Origin: the human T2T-CHM13v2.0 reference genome, Homo sapiens
Direction: 5' to 3' (one strand)
DNA length: 64,000 nucleotides
Assembly (NCBI RefSeq): GCF_009914755.1
Contig: NC_060940.1
Below, piece by piece: positions 37,567 to 53,525 of the stretch. Both the position numbers and the translations under genes were made by a program. Every line of letters starts with the position of its first letter. The stretch's first letter is position 1. The notes beneath the pieces are model-generated. The model saw only the letters and a program-made list of their open reading frames with translations, made no database searches and had not been told where the DNA came from.

Positions 37567-38395
37567 TAATGTCATTCTTAAATTATCTAGAAACTAAGAA
37601 ACAAAGGATAAAAGCTTCTGCACAGTCAGAGAAGGCAATGTTCATTCTGTTCCCTCTTTATTTGCACATACTTATTCAGGTTTTTCACTCTTATTTTACA
37701 CAGAACTCAAATGTCTGTAATTACCTGATATTCAAACCCACAGCATATTAGAAACAGTAACTGGAAAGAGAGAAGAGTGGGTACACGAACAATTAGGCAT
37801 AAGGATTTAAAACACGAAACCATCTAGAAACATTTAGTTCAGGGGCAAAGTGTCTTTGTGCACCTCAGTTTCCCCTAACAGCTTTAGTTTATTTAAGCAG
37901 AGCAGCATAATCTGTGCTCATAAAGATATTTCCAAATTATTTTTTAAATCCAAATAATGTTGTGTATACTGCACTTGAAATAGTGGCAATAGTTTTTTCT
38001 GTTTGTGTGCTTGTTTGCTTGCTTTTAAAATATTTTTCATTCAAAACAGTCAAAATAAAATAAGTAATTGCTTCAGTGTTTAAAGCGCAGAAGCCTTGGA
38101 TCTATGGAAAGTAAGAGTACCCAGTATAACTCATTAACTCAATAAACATTTACTGTGTAAAAATTGTACATCAGGAACCGTGGATGGAGAAATAAATAAT
38201 ATTGATCCCTGTCTTCAGGAAGCTCAACATTTAATTTGAGAATATGTCCCCAGGGATCTGCATTGCTGAGATTTTTATGGTATAAAAGGATGATGGTTAA
38301 ATCCTTCCTGTTCTACGAGTCTTAGGACTCCCAGAGGTGAGCACCACTGAATCAAAGCCTTGAAGTTTGAGAAGAAGCAACAGGATTCATATATT

Positions 38396-38770
38396 AAGGA
38401 AAGAAGGAAGGAAGGAAGAAAACAGGGAAGGAAGAAGGGAGGAAGGAAGGAAGGAAGGAAGGAAGGAAGGAAGGAAGGAAGGAAGGGAGGGAGGGAGGGA
38501 GGAAGGAAGGAAGGGAGGGAGGGAGGGAGGAAGGAAGGAAGGAAGGTAGGTAGGTCTTGGAGTCAGAGAAGTTGGTACATCCCCCATCTCTGCTACTAAC
38601 TTTCTGATTGACTTTATAAACCAGTCAATTTTTCTGGGTCTCATCAAATTTTTCAGAAGGAAGGAAAGAAGAAAGGAAGGAAGGAAAGAAGGAAGGAGGG
38701 AGGGAGGGAGGGAGGGAGGGAGGGAGGAAGGAAGGAAGGAAGGAAGGAAGGAAGGAAGGAAGGAAGGAAA
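38396..38770. repeat. Bipartite GGAA/GGGA microsatellite with a ~100-bp unique insert
   Basis: (GGAA)11 at 38441-38484 and (GGAA)11 at 38726-38769 flank the insert at 38553-38654. Confidence 0.95.
38553..38654 (+). repeat. Direct duplicate, copy 1 (partner 40015-40120)
   Basis: Manual alignment: 9 substitutions and one 4-bp indel over about 105 bp. Confidence 0.93.
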
Positions 38771-40014
38771 GGGGAAAACTGAAAAAGGTTGGCCAGACCG
38801 AACTGGAAGCTGGAGGGTAAAGAAATCCCCTGGTGCAGATGGTAGAGGTCAGGCACAGAGCAGAGTGAAAACAGAGCACGTCTGGAGAGGCAAATAGAAC
38901 ATGTTCATTCCTGCCACACTGATCCATTCCAACATGGAGTCCACTTTGCTCAGGATCAAAGGACATTTTCCCATTAGCATCAGAAGTGGTCTCATGATCC
39001 TTCTCAGCAAGCCCTCCAGGCAGAGTAGAGTCATTGGTTAAAATTGGACCGTAAGTTGGGCCATATTTCCCATCCTTGCCCAACACAGTCTTGAACCTTC
39101 TTTCATATTCTTTTTTCGTTGGTTTGATTGTCTTGATTTTAGTAATGCCTTATCACTTTTTGAAAGGTGATTTTAACTTGTGTTTGCTGAAACCACCATA
39201 TTGATAATGCTTTGTGGATATAAAATATCCAGAGAGACAGAAACATTGTCATGAAAAAAAAAGCACTGGACTTTGTTTTAGAAATCTCCGTATCTTACTA
39301 ACGAGATTGGCTGATCTTGGACAAGTCATGTGCTTCATGGGAGCCTAAGATCTAACCTATGTGTAGTAGGAATGATGAAGTTACCTCCCAGAACACCAAG
39401 GATGTTAACTTTTACAAGGGAAAAATACAAAAAAAAAAAAAAAAAAAAAAAAAGGTGCTGCATGATTCATAAGAAAGTAGTGATTTTTTAGTTTAGTTAT
39501 TATTTTTTAATAAGGCATCATAAAGAGGTGAAGAGATCAAGCTGTAGGTTAGAAAACAAGGCTTTGAAACTTGGCTCTGGAACTTCCTAGCTGGGTGACA
39601 ATGAGCAAATGTCATAATCTTTCCAAACCTCAGTTTCCTTATCTACAAATGGGAATGACTGCAGCACCCACCTCACAGGCTACTTGTTTCATGATATTCA
39701 ATGAGGATAACCAAAAGCATTAATTATTACTGCCTTGTTATGGCTGCAGAGGATGCCTTCAGAGCAGGGAGCAAGTCCATACGTTATTCACTAATTTGAT
39801 AGCATTTATTGTGCCTTGTCAGGGTCTAAGATTTATGATTTAGCTGGAGACAGACATCAACAGGCCTTTCTACTTCTCCTGAGACCACAGCCATAAACAA
39901 AATTAAACTCCTGAGTGCTGTTCCCTCCAAACATTTCTCCTCAATTTTGTTTGCCCAAGTTTCAGAGACCATTACTTCAGTCATGATTTTCAATGTGAGC
40001 TGATTGAAATCACT

Positions 40015-40120
40015 GGTCTTGGAGTCAGAGAGGTTGGTGCATCCATCCCCCATCTGTGCTGCTAACTTTCTTATTGACTCTATAAACCAGTAAATTTCTC
40101 TGGATCTCATCAAATTTTTC
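40015..40120 (+). repeat. Direct duplicate, copy 2 (partner 38553-38654)
   Basis: ggtcttggagtcagagaggttggtg...ctcatcaaatttttc, followed by a GA-rich tract as in copy 1. Confidence 0.93.
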
Positions 40121-40167
40121 TGAGGAGAGAAACGAAGGAAGGAAGGCAGGGAGGGAGGGAGGGAAGC

Positions 40168-40825
40168 ATTGATTTACACCAGACAACCCACTAAAAGTTT
40201 TCATTTTATAATAACTGTAACACCATCAACCATTCTTTGAAAGCACATCTGTTGGCTTCCAGAGTTTCTTCATCACTCTTAGACGTGGAAGGTGTTTAAC
40301 AAGCTCAAAAAGACACACAAATATCAAGCACCTACTCTGTGACTGGCATCAGATCTATATTTAATACACTTTGGGTATTTTCTGAAACAAAGATGATTTT
40401 CCATAACCAATTCCCAAACCAAGAACATGCATGCATCTGTGTCCGGCAGAGTGGAAGTAATGAACATGAATGCCACCTTTGTTAAATTCTGAAATGGACC
40501 TAAAGGTGCCCGAATTCTATATAAAGTCATATTGCTAAGCTTTGATTCATACCTAATTTCCTCAAATGGGAAGGGTGGAGGATTAGTTGAATGAAGGGCT
40601 GCTGTAGAAAGAGCAACACATGTCTTCTTGGCGAATGTCTGCTTTTCTTCCAGTTATTAGAGTTAATGCCAGCACAGGAAGGGAGCAGCAGGGGCCAGAG
40701 TTGTTTTTCCCCTTAGAGCAACAGGGAGAATGTACTGCAGATAAGAGTCACCCGAGTGTTTGGCTTTTGGAAATGGAATTAGAATTGCTGTATACATGTC
40801 AACTGGATCTGGGAAGCCTGACAAT
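40168..40825 (+). repeat. Inverted duplication, left arm (~655 bp)
   Basis: Reverse complement of 44060-44717; manual count about 30 substitutions and two 2-bp indels (~95%); the ORF track shows mirror peptides on opposite strands. Confidence 0.97.
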
Positions 40826-42218
40826 TCTTCTCCCTGCCCCCATCTCTTAATTCTGATTACTGCCAGACTGAGACCTATCTATCAGTTCTGAACGTTAAGT
40901 GCAAGAAAGGTTTCATTGTGAGGGGAGAGTTGGGGGGAACTGGCCTTATTTTACCAGGAGAAGGCTATTATCTTGCAACAGCTGTTTATAGTTAACTGCA
41001 GCCCATACTTAAAGCCTGAATGTTAGAGCCTTATTTAGTGCCTGTGGATTTGTGGTGAACAGAGTCAGGCTTAACTCTTTCTTCCCCACGTTGCTAATGA
41101 TAGAAATGAGGTGGAGGGGATCTGCAAACAAAGAGGGTGACACGGAAGAGGGCTGGAGCATGGAAGCAGGGCAAGCAGTTATTTCAAATGAGGGTGACTA
41201 CTGAGGTTTTACTGCATGTTAGGGATGCATGGAGCATGTTGCATGCATTATTTCCATTAATTTTGACCATCAGCACTCTGATATTGATATGATTCCACCT
41301 ATTTCACAGGGGAGAAAAAGGAGGCTTAAGCAAGAACGCCAGGATTCAAGTCCAGAAGAATTCAACTGCAGAACCAAAGCTCATAAACCCTAGATATGTA
41401 TCTTGTTAATTCAGAAGCTTTAACTGAGGATATTCAAGATGGCCTGCACTGTGCTGGCCTAGCTATCATGGATAGAGGGTTTCCACCCCACAGGACCCTT
41501 AGGCTGGCCAGAAAGGTAAGCGAATACAGTTGATACACTGAGGATGGAGAAAGGCAGTGAAAACCACATAAACTTCTCACTCTAGGGGAAACAGAGTAGA
41601 TCAGAACTCAGAGGAATTTAGGGAGGGTGGCAGAATTTATACAAACGAAGCTCATTTCAAGAAGAGAACACAGCTGCTGAAATACATACATACATACACA
41701 CACATACATACACATGTATATACGTACATGCATTGCAGAGAGAAACACTCAGAATTGTTTCAGAGAGGGCTGGGAGGGGTAAGCAGGGCCCGAGCCCCAG
41801 GAGCACTCTGGCTGCCCCTGCACAAACTTAGACTTGATTTCTACAGGTGACAAGCAACAAGGTGGTCAGAGCTACATTTTAGAAAGGTCACTCTGGCTGC
41901 AGGGGCAACAAGGTTGTGGAGGTGGCAAAAGATGTCAAGAAAAGTCAGTACATTCTATGACAACCCAGGGAAAGGAAAAAAAGGCCAGAACTATAGAAGT
42001 GGGCAGTTGGGAATGGAATCAAGAGATGTGTTGCAGGTAGAACAAGTAGAAATGTGTTCATTTCTTTGCCTCTCTAAAGACTAAAGAGAGGTTAAATTTT
42101 CCAGCAGGAAGTTGGAAGGAGCATTGCTCAAACCACTAACCCAACCCCAAATGATATACATTCCTGAGGGTTACAATGCTAACCAGTGGTGTTGGGGGTG
42201 GCAGTGAGACTGCACCAG

Positions 42219-42245
42219 CACACACACACACACACACACACACAC
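42219..42245. repeat. (CA)13 microsatellite
   Basis: Visible run. Confidence 0.95.
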
Positions 42246-43163
42246 TTTCATTTACTCAAAACGTCTGGAATTTTTGCTCTCCTCTTTGTTTGACTCCAAC
42301 ATCTTTTCTGATGACAAAGAAAACCAAAGATTTTGAAATCCATTGTTGAGCACAAAGAGAGGCGGAGTAAGAGGGTTGTGGGGGAAAAGTTGGCCGACTC
42401 TGAACTTTATACCCTGCCTTGGTACCCAACAATTCGCAGTGGGAGAGAGAGTAGCTTGCCAAAGAGCTCTGTGTGACTGGGCTAAGCTAGAAGAATATGT
42501 AAAGTTCAAGATGAAAAGACAGCCCTCACAGCTGAAAACAGAGCTGGGAGCTAACAGAGCTTGGGAAAGGAGACTTCACAAAGAAAAGTGCTTATCTGCA
42601 AACTCGTTTCTCTGCAGCAAACGCTCCCAGGACCTCTGGCAAAAGGAATTCCTGGACACAGGCCTTTCCACTGAGCTTTTAGTGATCTGTGGTTAATTAC
42701 TTCTCGCCAGGCTCTCTTCTACAGCCAATCCATGGGGCAACCTGCAGAGGCCTGGGGTAGAGGTTTTGCCATTTTAATTCCAACATTCAACAAAGTTAAA
42801 GTTTTACAACTGCAGAACTGGGAAGAACCTTACTTCTCCTTCTACTCAGAATTCCTAATTTTTGCTGGAGTGGTGGGTCAGACAATACAGGGAGAAAGGC
42901 CAGGCTGCCTGTGAGACAGCAGCATCTGCTGCCTGCAGGGGGCTGGGGATACCAGCAAGGGGTGTCTCTCCTGCTGTAAGGAAGTCCAGGAGAATCTGAC
43001 GGTCACTCAGCAAAAAGGGCTGTTCTGGTCTGCCCCAGGGCATTCTTGCAATTGAGCCACAGATTTGCTACCATTGGCCAAATGGACTAAGGCTTCTTCC
43101 AGCACTGCATCCTGGACTCGCATGATTTTACATCAAAACAAAACAAGTTTCCTGAAAAGAAGG

Positions 43164-43618
43164 TGTTTTAGACAGGGTTCTCCAGAGAAACAGAAAAGCA
43201 TGTCTATTCTATCTATCTAGCTATCTACCTATGTATCAATACTATCAAGAGATTTTTTAAAAATTGGCTCCTGAGGCTACAGGGGACAGCAGGTCTGAAA
43301 TTTATAAGCCAGGCCAGCCCATTCAGGTCAGAGTGGATGTTGCAGTCTTGAGTCCAAATTCCACAGCGCAGCAAGATGGAAACTTAGGCAGGGTTTTTAA
43401 TTTTGCAGTCTTGAGAATTCATTCATCAGGGAACTTCTGTCTTTGCTTTTAAGGTCTTTAACTGATTGGATGAGGCCCACCCACATCTCTTAAAGTCTAC
43501 TGATTTAAATGTCGATCACACTGTTAAAATACCTTCACAGAAAAATTTAGACTAGCATTTGACCAAACGAGCAGGCACCATAGCCTAACCAAGTTGACAC
43601 ATAAAACTTACCATCATA
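43164..43618 (-). mobile_element. MLT2 (ERVL) solo LTR
   Basis: cagggttctccagagaaacagaa...aactgattggatgaggcccacccacat...ccaagttgacacataaaacttaccatca; perfect 5-bp TSD GAAGG (43159-43163, 43619-43623). Confidence 0.88.
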
Positions 43619-44059
43619 GAAGGTATTACAACAGTGTGTAAAGCAAGACAAAAGTCTATATATTGTGGAATATATAACTGGCAAAGGATTGAGATTAATA
43701 CAGGACCATGCATTTTATTGTACTCAAAACCATTTCAGATAACTGAATTTCCTACACACTAGAGAGAATAATGACCCCCCACCTAACTCAAAGATTCCCA
43801 GTCCCCTGCCCCACTTGCAGTCCCCACCAACACACCCACTAGAGGCCTATTCCTCCAGGAGTCCGGGGTCCCTATCAACCTCCCTTGGACCTCAGACAGT
43901 GGGCAGCACTGACCAGTGACATACACCAAGTGGGGATGTCCTCCAGCCTGGGAGACCCTGTGTGCTAGGGATAAAGTCGCTGCCTTCAAATTTTTGTCTT
44001 TTCTTCCCTAACTAGGGTTTAACTCAGGCCATTCTACATCTACCTGCACCCCCACCCCT

Positions 44060-44717
44060 ATTTTCAGCCTTCCCAGATCAAGCTGACATGTATACAGCAA
44101 TTCTATTTTCATTTCCAAAAGCCAAACACCCGGGTGAGTCTTATCTCTGGTACATTCTCCCTGTTGCTCTAAGGGGAAAAACAACTCTGGCCCCTGCTGC
44201 TCCCTTCCTGTGCTGGCACTAACTCTAATAACTGGAAAAAAAGCAGACATTTGCCAAGAAGACATATGTGTTGCTCTTTCTACAGCAGCCCTTCATTCAA
44301 CTAATCCTCCACCCTTCCCATTTGAGGAAATTAGGTATGAATCAAAGCTTAGCAATATGACTTTATATAGAATTTGGGTGCATTTAGGTCCATTTCAGAA
44401 TTTAGCAAAGGTGGCATTCATGTTCATTACTTCCACTCTGCCGGACACAGATGCATGCATGTTCTTGGTTTGGGAATTGGTTATGGAAAATCATCTTTCT
44501 TTCAGAAAATACCCAAAGTGAATTAAATATAGATCTGATGCCAGGCACAGAGTAGGTGCTTAATATTTGTGTGTCTTTTTGAGCTCGTTAAACCCCTTAC
44601 AAGTCTAAGAGAGATGAAGAAACTCTGGAAGCCAACAGATGTGCTTTCAAAGAATGGTTGATGGTGTTATAGTTATTAAAATGAAAACTTTTAGTGGGTT
44701 GTCTAGTGTAAATGAAC
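44060..44717 (-). repeat. Inverted duplication, right arm (~655 bp)
   Basis: Reverse complement of 40168-40825. Confidence 0.97.
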
Positions 44718-44940
44718 CTTCCTTCTTCCTTCCTTTCTTTCTCCCTCCCTCTGTCCTTTCCTCCCTCCTTTCCTCCCTTCCTTCCTTTCTTCCTTCTTGT
44801 ATTTTATTGATTACAATAACTCAAAACTTTTAGTGGGTTGTCTGGTGTAAATGAATCTTCCTTCCTTTCTTTCTTCCTTCCTTCTTCCCTCCCTCCCTCT
44901 CTCCCTTTCTTCCTTCCTTCCTTCCCTCTTTCTTTCCTTT
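44718..44940. repeat. Bipartite TTCC/TCCC microsatellite containing a ~35-bp re-copy of the arm end
   Basis: aaaacttttagtgggttgtct(a/g)gtgtaaatgaa at 44684-44716 and again at 44823-44855, each followed by TTCC repeats. Confidence 0.93.
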
Positions 44941-45073
44941 CTATTAGCTATTTTTTTCTGATGTGGTCATGTATTTGACCACGAGGAGAATTCCAATGCA
45001 TTTCAAAAAGCATAAGTTACACAAAACTTCTTGTTTTGCCACTATAAAACAAAATTAGAAATTAAGAAGCAGC

Positions 45074-45240
45074 AGCCAGGTGTGGTGGCTCACACCTGTA
45101 ATCCCAGCACTTTGGGAGGCTGAGGGGGGTGGATAGCTTAAAGCCAAGAGTTCAAGACTACCTGGGCAACATGGCAAATCCTCATCTCCACCAAAATTAC
45201 AAAAATTATTTAGTCTCATGACCGTGTTTCAAAAAAAAAA
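45074..45240 (+). mobile_element. Alu remnant (left arm; right arm almost entirely missing)
   Basis: gccaggtgtggtggctcacacctgtaatcccagcactttgggaggc...aaaattacaaaaatta, then gaccgtgtttc and an A-run. Confidence 0.85.
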
Positions 45241-45424
45241 TTAAAAAGCAAAACAAAACATATGAGATAACAAATACATATATAGCGATTTTTCCTGATG
45301 CACTCCCTCCCTCCACTGCCCTCCTTCCCCCAATTGTGGGTTTTTATGTTCCTTCTTATTTTAAACCAAGAGATAACAAAAGGGAAAAACATTTTAGGGA
45401 GACATAAATTCAAAAAAAAAAGTC

Positions 45425-46453
45425 GCTGGAGCCAAGATGGCCGAATAGGAACAGCTCCAGTCTACAGCTCCCAGAGTGAGCGATGCAGAAGACGGGTGAT
45501 TTCTGCATTTCCATCTGAGGTACCGGGTTCTTCTCACTAGGGAGTGCCAGACAGTAGGCGCAGGACAGTGGGTGCAGCACACCCTACGCAAGCGGAAGAA
45601 GGACGAGGCATTGCCTCAGGAAGCGCAAGGAGTCAGGGAGTTCCCTTTCCTAGTCAAAGAAAGGGGTGACAGACGGCACCTGGAAAATCGGGTCACTCCC
45701 ACCCCAATACTGCGCTTTTCTGACGAGCTTAAAAAACGGCACACCAGGAGATTATATCCCGCACCTGGCTCAGAGGGTCCTATGCCCACGCAGTCTCGCT
45801 GACTGCTAGCACAGCAGTCTGAGATCAAACTGCAAGGCGGCAGCAAGGCTGGGGGAGGGGCGCCCACCATTGCCCAGGCTTGCTTAGGTAAACAAAGCAG
45901 CCGGGAAGCTCGAACTGGGTGGAGCCCACCACAGCTCAAGGAGGCCTGCCTGCCTCTGTAGGCTCCACCTCTGGGGGCAGGGCACAGACAAACAAAAAGA
46001 CAGCAGTAACCTCTGCAGACTTAAATGTCCCTGTTTGACAGCTTTGAAGAGAGCAGTGGTTCTCCCAGCACGCAGCTGGAGATCTGAGAAGGGGCAGACT
46101 GCTTCCTCAAGTGGGTCCCTGACCCCTGACCCCCGAGCAGCCTAACTGGGAGGCACCCCCAAGTAGGGGCAGACTGACACCTCACACAGCCGGGTACTCC
46201 TCTGAGACAAACCTTCCAGAGGAACGATCACACAGCAGCATTCGCAGTTCACGAAAATCCGCTGTTCTGCAGCCACTGCTGCTGGTACCCAGGCAAACAG
46301 GGTCTGGAGTGGACCTCTAGCAAACTCCAACAGACCTGCAGCTGAGGGTCCTGTCTGTTAGAAGGAAAACTAACAAACAGAAAGGACATCCACACCTAAA
46401 ACCCATCTGTACATCACCATCATCAAAGACCAAAAGTAGATAAAACCACAAAG
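45425..46453 (+). promoter_or_regulatory. L1 5'UTR: internal sense promoter with YY1 site, plus antisense promoter region
   Basis: YY1 motif AAGATGGCCG at 45434-45443; CpG-rich UTR; sense and antisense promoter activity is known for primate L1 5'UTRs but is not shown for this copy. Confidence 0.75.
45616..45870 (-). CDS. L1 ORF0 (antisense ORF), open, 84 aa
   Basis: ATG at 45870-45868 gives MVGAPPPALLPPCSLISDCCASSQRD...GVTRFSRC, matching ORF0 (MAGAPPPASLPPCSLISDCCAS...); expression unknown. Confidence 0.6.
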   Translation of the reverse strand: MVGAPPPALLPPCSLISDCCASSQRDCVGIGPSEPGAGYNLLVCRFLSSSEKRSIGVGVTRFSRCRLSPLSLTRKGNSLTPCAS

Positions 46454-47470
46454 ATGGGGAAAAAACAGAGCAGAAAAACTGGAAACTCTAAAAAGCAGAG
46501 CGCCTCTCCTCCTCCAAAGGAACTCAGCTCCTCACCAGCAACGGAACAAAGCTGGATGGAGAATGACTTTGACAAGTTGAGAGAAGAAGGCTTCAGATGA
46601 TCAAACTACTCCGAGCTACAGGAGGAAATTCAAACCAAAAGCAAAGAAGTTTAAAACTTTGAAAAAAATTTAGACAAATGTATAACTAGAATAACCAATA
46701 TAGAGAAGTGCTTAAAGGAGCTGATGGAGCTAAAAGCCAAGGCTTGAGAACTACGTGAAGAATGCAGAAGCCTCAGGAGCCGAAGCGATCAACTGGAAGA
46801 AAGGGTATCAGTGATGGAAGATGAAATGAATGAAATGAAGTGAGAAGGGAAGTTTAGAGAAAAAAGAATAAAAAGAAAGGAACAAAGCCTCCAAGAAATA
46901 TGGGACTATGTGAAAAGCCCAAATCTACGTCTGATTGGTGTACCTGAAAGTGATGGGGAGAATGGAACCAAGTTGGAAAACACTCTTCAGGATATTATCC
47001 GGGAGAACTTCCCTAATCTAGCAAGGCAGGCCAACGTTCAGATTGAGGAAATACAGAGAACGCCACAAAGATACTCCTCGAGAAGAGCAACTCCAAGACA
47101 CATAATTGTCAGATTCACCAAAGTGGAAATGAAGGAAAAAATGTTAAGGGCAGCCAGAGAGAAAGGTCGGGTTACCCACAAAGGGACGCCCATCAGACTA
47201 ACAGTGGATCTCTCGGCAGAAACTCTACAAGCCAGAAGACAGTGGGGACCAATATTCAACATTCTTAAAGAAAAGAATTTTCAACCCAGAATTTCATATC
47301 CAGCCAAACTAAGCTTCATAAGTGAAGGAAAAATAAAATACTTTACAGACAAGCAAATGCTGAGAGATTTTGCCACCACCAGGCCTGCCCTAAAAGAGCT
47401 CCTGAAGGAAGCATTAAACATGGCAAGGAACAACCGGTACCACCCACTGCAAAAACATACCAAATTGTAA
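46454..47470 (+). pseudogene. L1 ORF1p, disrupted
   Basis: ATG GGG AAA AAA CAG start, 1017-bp frame kept; premature stops at 46598, 46652, 46745 and 46841 (three look like CGA>TGA); C-terminal part NLRLIGVPE...RISYPAKLSF intact. Confidence 0.95.
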
Positions 47471-47533
47471 AGACCGTCGAGACTAGGAAGAAACTGCATC
47501 AACTAATGAGCAAAATAACCAGCTAACATCATA

Positions 47534-51357
<3,824 letters not shown>

Positions 51358-53525
51358 ACAATGAGAACACATGGACACAGGAAGGGGAACATCACACTCT
51401 GGGGACTGTTGTGGGGTCGGGAGAGGGGGGAGGGATAGCTTTAGGAGATATACCTAATGCTAAGTGATGAGTTAATGGGTGCATCACACCAGCATGGCAC
51501 CTGTATACATATGTAACTAACCTGCACATTGTGCACATGTACCCTAAAACTTAAAGTATAATAATAATATTTAAAAAATAAAAATAAAAAAGTCAAGGAG
51601 TTTAAAATATCTTATTCTAAAAAATAATATGCCACTGTCTCATATTCTTTTACACCCATTTTGGCCTTAATGTCAGCTCACCTAAGAGGAAGACTACCCC
51701 CTTGGGTTAGGAGTAAACATTCATACTGGGCTTTTCCAGCCCTCTAGTTAGTGTATTCAGGCCCTGCTTTCTCTACTTGCCTAAGAAGCAGTTATATTTG
51801 TAAAGACAGAGGTGGAAGTTTATGGTGTAAGGTCTTCACTCAGGTAAAGGGTATTTCCTTTACAAATTCATCTTCTTTTTCATGAATGCCCCCAAGAGAA
51901 TGTCATCTACCCCCACAGAATTCAGTAAAACATAGCTAAAAAATTGAAGTGAGTGACCCCACTAGACCTTTAATAAGAATCACTCTTGACAGGATGAGAA
52001 TAAAAACCAAAAGCACTGGAGTTGTTGGGTGCTGGTAGTAACACTTCAGATTGAGAGGGTCATGCAATTATGCCAGCACCACAGTAAATATTCATACACA
52101 GGCCTCAGTGACATGGCATATTTCAGTGCCTTAAGACCTAAGTAGGGCCAGAATCTAACTTACCTCTGAGGTTGCCAATGCATGAAATTCCTCATATGTC
52201 TTCTGATGGACATGACCTGTCCTCAAGGCTCCCCTCAAACCTGCACCTTTCCTTTTAGCATTCCTTGCCACTGCGGCAAGTAAATTGCTGGTTTAATTAT
52301 TTACTTAATGTCTTTCTCCTCTGTTGGATGGTGACTTCTGTAAAGTCAAGGACTGTCTTGTGTAATGCTTGGCACGACATTGAGTAAATAAGTGCTCCAT
52401 GAACATCCATTCCGTGAATGAATGTACCAACCAACCCACCACAGCCAGGGTCCTACATCCCTCAGGTGTGAATGACCAGATATTTTCATCCATACAACTA
52501 TGTCCACTTGCAGATACCATAGACATAAATAAAACCCGAGTGTTTAAAATACTTTTCCTTTCTGCAATTGGGGTATTCACATTGATAAATTGTTCCATGC
52601 TCTCAGGAATATTAAGAGGCTGCCATTTATATAACACCACTTTCTACCACCACTACTTCTTAGGAGACTATTTTTAAAAAAGAAATAACTGTCAGTGTGT
52701 GCATGATTTTCAACTACACATCTTTTATTCTTCAAAACTTGAAGAAAAGCTGCTGTGTTTGTGTTTCTTTTACATTTAGTTTGGTCTTTCACAGCAAAGG
52801 TGCCCAGAAGCCTGTTTAAGTGAGACATTGTTCAAAGCCCTCTATAATTTTATCCCCCTCTGCCAATTTTCCTTCCTCTTTTCTCACCACTTCCTACCAT
52901 GCCCTAAACGCCCCAGCCCACCATTGCACGAAGGTATACACAGAGGGGTGGTAACCAGGCATCAGATCTTGAGGAAGATCCTGAGAACACACAGAGAATA
53001 ACACAAATATAGTCGCAGCCCTCATGGGTTTATACTTTATTGAGGAAGGCAAGAATTAAGAAAGTACTTTGAGTTTGATGAAAGTTAACAAAGAGGGCTT
53101 TAAGACTATATTAGGAGCATACATAAAATAACTGGAGTCTAGTGTACCAGGACAGGTCAACTTGAGAACATGACACTTGAGCTGAGAATTAAAGGAATCA
53201 GTAGCAGCCAGGCAAGTGAGCAGTGTTGGGTTGAGGACACTTTGTAGGCAGTGGGAAGGGTGTTTAAGAAGACCCAATGTTCAGAAGGAACATGCTGGAT
53301 TAAAGAAAATGAAAGAAGCCAGAACACCGGCAGAAGGGAAAGAGTTATCCTAACCCAACACACGTACAATTTCATTCATCTCCATTTTTTCTCTCTTGCT
53401 GTTCCCCTTGGTCTTAAATGCTGTTCTCCTTCTTCTCAATCTATTACATGCTTAATTCAACATTTATTTATATTCTGAGAGTTTTACCAACATCTCCCCT
53501 GTTGGAACATCTACCACCATGACTC

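What the first reader, a model, noticed from the sequence alone, without database searches (positions are those of the whole stretch)
40168..46000. L1 antisense promoter aimed into the inverted repeat: candidate long hairpin-RNA locus
Seen: the full-length L1 begins about 700 bp right of the right arm in + orientation, so its antisense direction runs leftward through the right arm, spacer and left arm. Established: primate L1 5'UTRs have an antisense promoter that drives transcripts into upstream flanks, and long dsRNA stems are substrates for ADAR, Dicer and the MDA5/PKR sensors. Inference: a ~5.8-kb minus-strand transcript would fold into a ~650-bp, ~95% paired, non-Alu stem, expressed only when this L1 is derepressed (germ line, embryo, tumours). 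Caveat: minus-strand AATAAA hexamers at 44803-44808 and 43714-43719 could end transcription before the stem forms. This is my best candidate for an undescribed system here, and it is a hypothesis only.
Basis: inference. Interest (0 to 1): 0.7.

Follow-up and report, generated by a model that had tools for sequence, protein, structure and literature searches.

The report
Intronic inverted duplication beside old L1
A one-off inverted duplication next to an old, dead L1 element could fold into a roughly 650-base-pair RNA hairpin, but it sits inside an intron of a long non-coding RNA gene read on the same strand, so it is most likely an ordinary intronic hairpin and not a new L1-switched system.

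Summary
Arms at 40136-40825 and 44060-44746 are inverted copies (93.4% with gaps; 95.3% over the 655 unique columns), 3234 nt apart. In the whole CHM13 genome they occur only at this locus, so they are not a transposon family. As minus-strand RNA they cofold at -1155 kcal/mol, with 651 of 687 nt paired, and the stem survives in the MFE of the full 4.7-kb RNA. A full-length L1 lies on the + strand from about 45428 to 51592. Its 5'UTR is collinear with other copies and it is L1PA3-or-older grade. Both ORFs are broken.

Its antisense promoter would point through the repeat.

No tool here sees RNA. The claim "expressed only when this L1 is derepressed" conflicts with the annotation: the window lies in an intron of LINC00922, which is transcribed on the same minus strand from about 25 kb upstream. 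Either promoter would leave the hairpin intronic and nuclear.

The arms have no homolog elsewhere to target. The stem falls just under the published ">300 bp, >96%" class of near-perfect dsRNA. I rate it a new member of a known kind, of low to moderate interest.

The parts
40136..40825 (.). Left arm of the inverted duplication. 40136-40168 is the (GGAA)n end; the unique part is 40169-40825.
   Evidence: unique in the genome
40826..44059 (.). Spacer or loop, 3234 nt. Single-copy except for one ancient interspersed repeat at about 43248-43629.
   Evidence: 39 non-self hits listed, all within query 2418-2799, at 67-81% identity; 1522 first-look candidates, 40 scored
44060..44746 (.). Right arm of the inverted duplication. 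The unique part is 44060-44716, followed by a (TTCC)n end.
44684..44934 (.). Tandem duplication of the outer 34 nt of the right arm plus its (TTCC)n tract (44684-44798 ~ 44823-44934, 82%). The minus-strand AATAAA at 44803-44808 lies between the two copies.
45075..45208 (+). Alu-monomer-like fragment between the right arm and the L1.
   Evidence: Sub-threshold Rfam SRP match, 42.6 bits against a gathering score of 70; Alu-like matches within the window and across the genome
45428..51592 (+). Full-length L1, L1PA3-or-older grade. The 5'UTR is 1026 nt, up to the ORF1 ATG at 46454. ORF1 has an in-frame stop at codon 49. ORF2 is fragmented; the longest ATG-started frame is 612 aa. A short flanking direct repeat looks like a target-site duplication.
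45828..46028 (-). Expected antisense-promoter zone (L1 positions about 400-600). It is placed by homology only; no activity data.
   Evidence: Position taken from Criscione 2016 passages ('within the first 600 bp') and from recall of Speek 2001. The region is collinear with 39 other copies at 94-95%.
45616..45870 (-). Open 84-aa antisense frame in the L1 5'UTR, at the place where ORF0 is described.
   Evidence: no Pfam family; ORF0 description from Criscione 2016 passages

Best explanation
The locus is a locus-specific, non-transposon inverted duplication of about 690 bp. If the arms have not been homogenised it is roughly 11-24 million years old. It lies in an intron of LINC00922, about 26-30 kb downstream of that gene's annotated start.

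About 700 bp to its right is an old, coding-dead, full-length L1 inserted antisense to the host gene. Any minus-strand RNA that spans both arms will fold into a stem of about 650 bp with a 3.2-kb loop.

The most likely source of that RNA is the LINC00922 primary transcript. The L1 antisense promoter is at most a secondary, alternative start. It would give the usual L1-to-host-gene chimeric isoform, with the hairpin still in the intron.

The expected fate is nuclear: ADAR editing of the arms at most, then removal with the intron. No dedicated function is expected.

Shown here: the repeat, its uniqueness in the genome, the fold, the L1 anatomy and the poly(A) hexamers.

Inferred: transcription, folding in vivo, editing and intron fate.
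For: - Repeat and fold. Arms are 95.3% identical over 655 unique columns. Cofold is -1155 kcal/mol, against -330 to -348 for 5 shuffles of the left arm. There are 651 pairs in 29 helices, six of them 30 bp or longer, the longest 108 bp. In the MFE of the 4711-nt minus-strand RNA, 630 of the 665 pairs spanning more than 3000 nt are arm-to-arm.
- Not a transposon. The arm is found at two places in 3.1 Gb. An open frame in the arm has no other genomic match and no Pfam family.
- Host gene. The hub annotation gives LINC00922 on the minus strand, spanning -222983..70608, with none of 10 exons in the window.
- Typical ASP geometry. The Criscione 2016 abstract and passages describe ASP transcripts as alternative genic transcripts, sense to the gene, starting downstream of its TSS and spliced to its exons. 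The title of Pinson 2022 says deregulation of L1 chimeric transcripts follows that of the host locus (listing).
- Fate of intronic stems. Barak 2020 passages say most ADAR activity is on intron-intron pairs that never reach the cytoplasm. Nat Genet 2025 passages say intronic repeats are almost excluded from immunogenic dsRNAs.
- No sign of selection on termination. There are 5 minus-strand poly(A) hexamers in 40100-45900, against 4.6 +/- 2.0 in shuffles.
Against: - No expression, CAGE, editing or small-RNA data could be consulted, so transcription from either promoter is unverified.
- Only one RefSeq isoform was listed. Other isoforms might carry exons in this region.
- The stem is longer and better paired than a typical inverted Alu pair, and Barak 2020 reports depletion of such structures even in pre-mRNA. 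Its survival is therefore mildly unexpected.
- The L1 keeps a collinear 5'UTR, the sequence at the published YY1 position and an open ORF0-like frame. ASP activity cannot be excluded.
Confidence: 0.62

Rival explanations
1. When this L1 is derepressed, its antisense promoter makes a minus-strand RNA of about 5.8 kb that runs through both arms. It folds into the long stem and acts as a derepression-specific substrate for ADAR, Dicer or dsRNA sensors.
For: - The geometry is right.
- The 5'UTR is full-length and collinear with 39 other copies at 94-95%.
- L1PA2-8 elements show antisense starts in the same region as L1HS (Criscione 2016 passages).
- The first poly(A) hexamer downstream, at 44803-44808, is followed by a pure purine tract with no U, so it may be weak.
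- No AATAAA or ATTAAA hexamer lies inside the right arm.
- The stem forms in the MFE.
Against: - The same strand is already transcribed as a LINC00922 intron (hub annotation), so the hairpin is not specific to L1 derepression.
- LINC00922 is absent from the 10 supplement files of Criscione 2016 and the 3 of Pinson 2022. Loci may be listed there under other names or coordinates.
- No strong 5' splice-site motif lies in the first 2.2 kb of the path, of the six patterns scanned. Four poly(A) hexamers precede the left arm and a fifth, with a GU-rich downstream stretch, lies inside it.
- The 5'UTR is CpG-decayed, with 28 CpG in 903 nt and observed/expected 0.38.
- The product would be unspliced or intronic, hence nuclear and out of reach of the cytoplasmic sensors.
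Confidence: 0.15
2. An hpRNA or endo-siRNA locus of the mouse-oocyte or Drosophila type. The stem is diced into small RNAs that silence a gene in trans.
For: A long, well-paired hairpin with helices up to 108 bp.
Against: - The arms have no other homologous place in the genome by DNA search.
- An arm open frame likewise has no other match (3 matches, all at this locus; 33 candidates scored). There is therefore no extended trans target.
- From general knowledge, human somatic Dicer handles long dsRNA poorly.
- The stem is intronic.
Confidence: 0.03
3. A DNA-level feature. The inverted repeat, with its flanking (GGAA)n/(TTCC)n tracts, acts through cruciform or H-DNA formation as a site of replication stalling or rearrangement, and has no RNA role.
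For: - The local history is rearrangement-prone. There is an inverted duplication bounded by (GGAA)n, a tandem duplication at 44684-44934, and an older direct repeat 38553-38701 ~ 40015-40164 at 83%.
Against: From general knowledge, a 3.2-kb spacer makes cruciform extrusion very unlikely. The roughly 5% divergence shows the structure has been stably inherited for millions of years.
Confidence: 0.08

Closest known systems
Long inverted duplicated sequences in pre-RNAs (Barak et al. 2020, Genome Biol; dsRNAscan preprint 2025)
   Same: Two inverted copies within one transcription unit, longer than 300 bp, predicted to form an intramolecular dsRNA. It is intronic, like the edited KLHDC1-intron example those authors show.
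   Different: The arms are 94.6-95.3% identical and 94.8% paired, just under the '>96%' class (197 human cases in RefSeq transcripts; 2,018 genome-wide). The arms are single-copy sequence, whereas dsRNAscan says most long, highly paired cases form between inverted LINEs and over 90% of all predicted dsRNAs are repetitive.
L1 antisense-promoter chimeric transcripts (Speek 2001, recalled; Criscione et al. 2016)
   Same: A full-length L1PA with a homologous 5'UTR, antisense to a host gene and downstream of its TSS. This is the configuration reported as typical.
   Different: No transcript evidence for this copy. The name LINC00922 appears in 0 of 10 supplement files. The reported products are spliced to host exons and would not retain the hairpin.
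Immunogenic inverted-repeat dsRNAs (IR-Alu; IR-ERV in the MRPL19 3'UTR; Nat Genet 2025)
   Same: A long intramolecular stem made of inverted copies.
   Different: Those lie in exons or 3'UTRs and reach the cytoplasm, and intronic ones are almost excluded. This one is intronic and is not made of repeats.
Mouse-oocyte and Drosophila hpRNA loci (recalled: Watanabe 2008, Tam 2008, Okamura 2008)
   Same: A long hairpin from a local inverted duplication.
   Different: Those are gene- or pseudogene-derived and have trans targets. These arms match nothing else in the genome.

Membership tests
Long intramolecular dsRNA / inverted duplicated sequence in a pre-RNA | Inverted self-match longer than 300 bp | tested here: met
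   690/687-nt arms, E=0; 651 bp paired
Long intramolecular dsRNA / inverted duplicated sequence in a pre-RNA | Both arms within one annotated transcription unit on one strand | tested here: met
   Hub annotation: LINC00922 on the minus strand spans the whole window, with no exon in it
Long intramolecular dsRNA / inverted duplicated sequence in a pre-RNA | 'Nearly perfect' subclass: more than 96% identity or pairing | tested here: not met
   93.4% with gaps, 94.6% and 95.3% without, 94.8% of nt paired.
Long intramolecular dsRNA / inverted duplicated sequence in a pre-RNA | Both arms expressed, with A-to-I editing clusters | not testable with these tools
   No RNA-seq or editing database was available. 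LINC00922 is absent from the Barak 2020 supplements (3 chr16 rows, 2 seen, at 57.5 and 27.9 Mb, third not seen) and from the Nat Genet 2025 supplements.
L1 antisense-promoter (ASP) transcript locus | L1HS/L1PA2-8 element retaining the first ~600 bp of the 5'UTR | tested here: met
   The 973-nt 5' end aligns end to end with 39 other copies at 94-95%. The 5'UTR is 1026 nt, which fits retention of the 129-bp element of L1PA3/4 (Larson 2018 passages).
L1 antisense-promoter (ASP) transcript locus | Mapped antisense TSS in the 5'UTR (EST, CAGE or long read) | not testable with these tools
   No such data here. The name is not found in 0 of 10 and 0 of 3 supplement files.
L1 antisense-promoter (ASP) transcript locus | Transcript continues or splices into the upstream flank | not testable with these tools
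   Sequence only: five poly(A) hexamers on the path, and the first strong 5'ss-like motif is 2.3 kb downstream
hpRNA / endo-siRNA locus | Homology of the arms to a target gene elsewhere | tested here: not met
   DNA search: 2 places, both at this locus. Protein-level search: 3 matches, all at this locus.
hpRNA / endo-siRNA locus | 21-23-nt small RNAs from the arms | not testable with these tools
   No small-RNA data
Inverted pair of transposon copies (IR-Alu, IR-L1, IR-ERV) or transposon with long terminal inverted repeats | Arms belong to a multi-copy family | tested here: not met
   Only 2 first-look candidates in 3.1 Gb. The same tool finds repeats of about 70% identity for the spacer and 6324 candidates for the L1.

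The most novel reading that the evidence does not exclude
The pairing of an L1PA antisense promoter with a single-copy, roughly 650-bp near-perfect inverted duplication works as a derepression alarm. When KZFP/TRIM28 or DNA-methylation control of this L1 fails, ASP read-through yields a retained, unspliced hairpin RNA. This RNA escapes to the cytoplasm or is heavily edited, and feeds the ADAR1-MDA5/PKR axis independently of Alu pairs.
Probability: 0.04. Interest if true: 0.65.

Novelty: new member of a known kind. Interest (0 to 1): 0.25.

Why it matters
If the stem forms in vivo, it would be one of the longer and better-paired non-repeat intramolecular dsRNAs in a transcribed human locus. Being single-copy, its reads map uniquely. 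That would make it a clean reporter for nuclear ADAR activity, for intron-derived dsRNA, or for read-through from one individual L1 antisense promoter.

LINC00922 is reported as raised in several cancers (search listing only), so an intronic hairpin could become visible when splicing or intron turnover is disturbed.

As it stands, nothing sets it apart from the many neutral intronic inverted repeats.

Tried and rejected
- Transposon origin of the arms: rejected. The arm occurs at two places only.
- Gene or pseudogene origin of the arms: rejected. A 127-aa frame is open in the right arm, and its counterpart in the left arm is open for 109 aa. Neither has a Pfam family, and the 127-aa frame has no other genomic match.
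- Known RNA family in 38000-47000: 4 matches, all below gathering score. They are an Alu-like SRP match, two miRNA-model matches that overlap a low-complexity AC-rich tract at 41684-41738, and a weak SCARNA7 match at 23 bits against 65.
- A 174-aa stop-free minus-strand frame at 38625-39149 looked protein-like. Its first 86 aa have no Pfam hit, no PDB hit and no other genomic copy. Dropped.
- Selection on termination signals: none seen.
- Literature link between LINC00922 and the L1 antisense promoter: 0 papers. LINC00922 with 'retrotransposon': 7 papers, judged unrelated from listed titles and abstract openings alone (mostly crotonylation, sirtuin or epigenetics reviews). 'LINE-1 / antisense promoter / hairpin RNA / inverted repeat / endo-siRNA': 16 papers, 12 listed, none describing an ASP feeding a flanking unique inverted repeat, judged from titles and abstracts only.
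They could bear on whether this locus is already listed.
- The exact L1 subfamily could not be assigned, because no repeat library was available.
Full report
**1. The observation**

The inverted repeat is real.
- The repeat finder reports two abutting arm pairs: 40206-40621/44266-44681 (416 nt, 96%) and 40616-40825/44060-44269 (210 nt, 93%).
- blastn joins them into 40136-40825 against 44746-44060, 93.35% over 692 columns, E=0.
- A local alignment gives 661 matches and 38 mismatches (20 transitions, 18 transversions, 5 in CpG context) and six gaps of 1-7 nt. Four of the gaps lie in the microsatellite ends.
- Over the unique part (40169-40825) there are 31 mismatches in 655 columns, which is 95.3%. 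The spacer is 3234 nt.

Both arms end outwardly in (GGAA)n/(TTCC)n. On the right, the last 34 nt of the arm plus its tract are duplicated in tandem (44684-44798 ~ 44823-44934, 82%).

Three minus-strand ATTAAA sites were not listed, at 43396, 42773 and 40360. The last is inside the left arm and is followed by a GU-rich stretch.

**2. What the arms are**

A search of the whole 3.1-Gb assembly with the left arm finds only itself, the right arm (95%), and the 34-nt echo (2 first-look candidates, both scored).

The tool does see old repeats. The spacer query returned hits of 67-81% identity, all to one interspersed repeat at about 43248-43629 (1522 candidates, 40 scored). The L1 query returned 6324 candidates.

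The arms are therefore single-copy sequence duplicated once, locally and in inverted orientation. They are not Alu, L1, ERV or a transposon with long terminal repeats.

A 127-aa open frame in the right arm, and its 109-aa counterpart in the left, have no Pfam family. The 127-aa frame has no other genomic match. Rfam finds nothing above gathering score in 38000-47000.

A Jukes-Cantor distance of 0.049 puts the duplication at 11-24 Myr, for rates of 2.2 to 1.0 x 10^-9 per site per year and assuming no gene conversion (the rates are general knowledge).

**3. The L1**

Extent:
- The element starts at about 45428, and its poly(A) ends at about 51592.
- A short flanking direct repeat is consistent with a target-site duplication.

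Coding state:
- ORF1 starts at 46454, so the 5'UTR is 1026 nt.
- ORF1 has an in-frame stop at codon 49 (read).
- Only six ATG-started frames of 100 aa or more remain, the longest 612 aa.

5'UTR and subfamily:
- The first 973 nt align end to end with 39 other genomic copies at 94-95% (40 of 6324 candidates scored). No part of the 5'UTR, including the antisense-promoter zone, is deleted.
- The 5'UTR length fits retention of the 129-bp element. According to passages of Larson et al. 2018, this element carries the ZNF93 site in L1PA3/L1PA4 and is lost in L1PA2/L1PA1.
- I therefore call it L1PA3-or-older. No repeat library was available to name the subfamily.
- CpG is decayed: 28 in 903 nt, observed/expected 0.38.

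Antisense frame:
- An 84-aa antisense frame (45870-45616) is open where ORF0 is described (Criscione passages).

**4. The fold**

As minus-strand RNA the arms cofold at -1155.1 kcal/mol. Five shuffles of the left arm give -330 to -348. There are 651 of 687 nt in intermolecular pairs, 9 of them G-U, forming 29 helices. Six helices are 30 bp or longer, and the longest are 108, 102 and 93 bp.

The MFE of the whole 4711-nt minus-strand RNA (44810 to 40100) is -2176 kcal/mol. It has 665 pairs spanning more than 3000 nt, 630 of them arm-to-arm.

The plus strand folds equally well, at -1166 kcal/mol. These are thermodynamic predictions and say nothing about co-transcriptional kinetics.

**5. Where the RNA would come from**

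The hub annotation places the window inside LINC00922, on the minus strand, spanning -222983..70608, with none of the 10 exons of NR_174971.1 in the window. The arms thus lie in an intron, 26-30 kb downstream of the annotated start. They are in the same orientation as any transcript from the L1 antisense promoter.

A minus-strand RNA spanning both arms therefore needs no L1 derepression.

The configuration is the textbook one for ASP chimeras. The Criscione 2016 abstract and passages describe them as alternative genic transcripts, sense to the gene, starting downstream of its TSS and spliced to its exons. L1PA2-8 elements initiate in the same first 600 bp as L1HS.

If this ASP fires, the expected mature product is an alternative LINC00922 isoform, with the hairpin left in the intron.

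On the path from about 45900 leftwards:
- the first poly(A) hexamer, at 44803-44808, is followed by pure purine with no U;
- four more hexamers follow;
- their number, 5 in 5.8 kb, equals the shuffle expectation of 4.6 +/- 2.0;
- of six strong 5' splice-site patterns scanned, the first match lies 2.3 kb downstream.

Read-through is neither favoured nor excluded by the sequence.

**6. Comparison with what is known**

- Barak et al. 2020 (passages) catalogued inverted duplicated sequences in pre-RNAs. They report 197 human cases over 300 bp and over 96% identity within RefSeq transcripts. Few are expressed, and most ADAR activity falls on intron-intron pairs that never leave the nucleus.
- The dsRNAscan preprint (section 10 read) counts about 1 million predicted dsRNAs over 300 bp. 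Only 2,018 of them are also more than 96% paired; most of those lie between inverted LINEs and 88% are intergenic.
- The Nat Genet 2025 study (passages) finds immunogenic dsRNAs almost free of intronic repeats.

This stem is long. At 94.6-95.3% identity and 94.8% pairing it falls just below the 'nearly perfect' class. It is unusual mainly in being non-repetitive.

The name LINC00922 occurs in none of the supplement files searched: 0 of 10, 0 of 3, 0 of 2 and 0 of 3. The locus may be listed there by coordinates. In Barak's table I saw 2 of the 3 chr16 rows, at 57.5 and 27.9 Mb, and not the third.

Full-text searches gave 0 papers joining LINC00922 with 'L1 antisense promoter'. Seven papers join it with 'retrotransposon'; from their listed titles and abstract openings alone they look unrelated.

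**7. Verdict**

Its distinctive claims do not. Derepression-only expression, access to Dicer and the cytoplasmic sensors, and the status of an undescribed system are unsupported or contradicted by the host-gene context.

The best reading, at about 0.6, is a neutral intronic inverted duplication that at most becomes an ADAR-edited nuclear stem when LINC00922 is transcribed, or less likely when the L1 ASP fires.

It is a new member of a known kind. Its single-copy arms make it an easy locus to test with existing stranded RNA-seq, CAGE and editing data, none of which I could reach.

Noticed in passing
window 45616-45870 (-): An open 84-aa antisense frame in the L1 5'UTR, at the position described for ORF0. 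It has no Pfam family.
   Followed up: partly
window 44684-44934: The outer 34 nt of the right arm plus its (TTCC)n tract are tandemly duplicated (82%). A 24-nt AT-rich linker between the copies carries the minus-strand AATAAA.
   Followed up: partly
window 38553-38701 and 40015-40164: An older direct repeat (83%) of a roughly 100-nt unit followed by (GGAA)n. The second copy abuts the left arm, so the left arm may be the parental copy. The right arm lacks this unit.
   Followed up: partly
window 44966-45284: A 320-nt stretch that includes an Alu-monomer-like piece has a single 84% paralogue on contig C2 (85973347-85973677). This match is longer than the Alu-only matches elsewhere.
   Followed up: no
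window 43248-43629: An ancient interspersed repeat in the spacer, 67-81% identical to many genomic copies. Its family was not named because no repeat library was available.
   Followed up: no
window 38625-39149 (-): A 174-aa stop-free frame whose first 86 aa look protein-like. It has no Pfam hit, no PDB hit and no other genomic match.
   Followed up: yes
window 44138-44521 (+) and 40324-40653 (-): The same reading frame stays open in both arms, 127 aa and 109 aa. It has no family and no homolog, so this is probably chance.
   Followed up: yes
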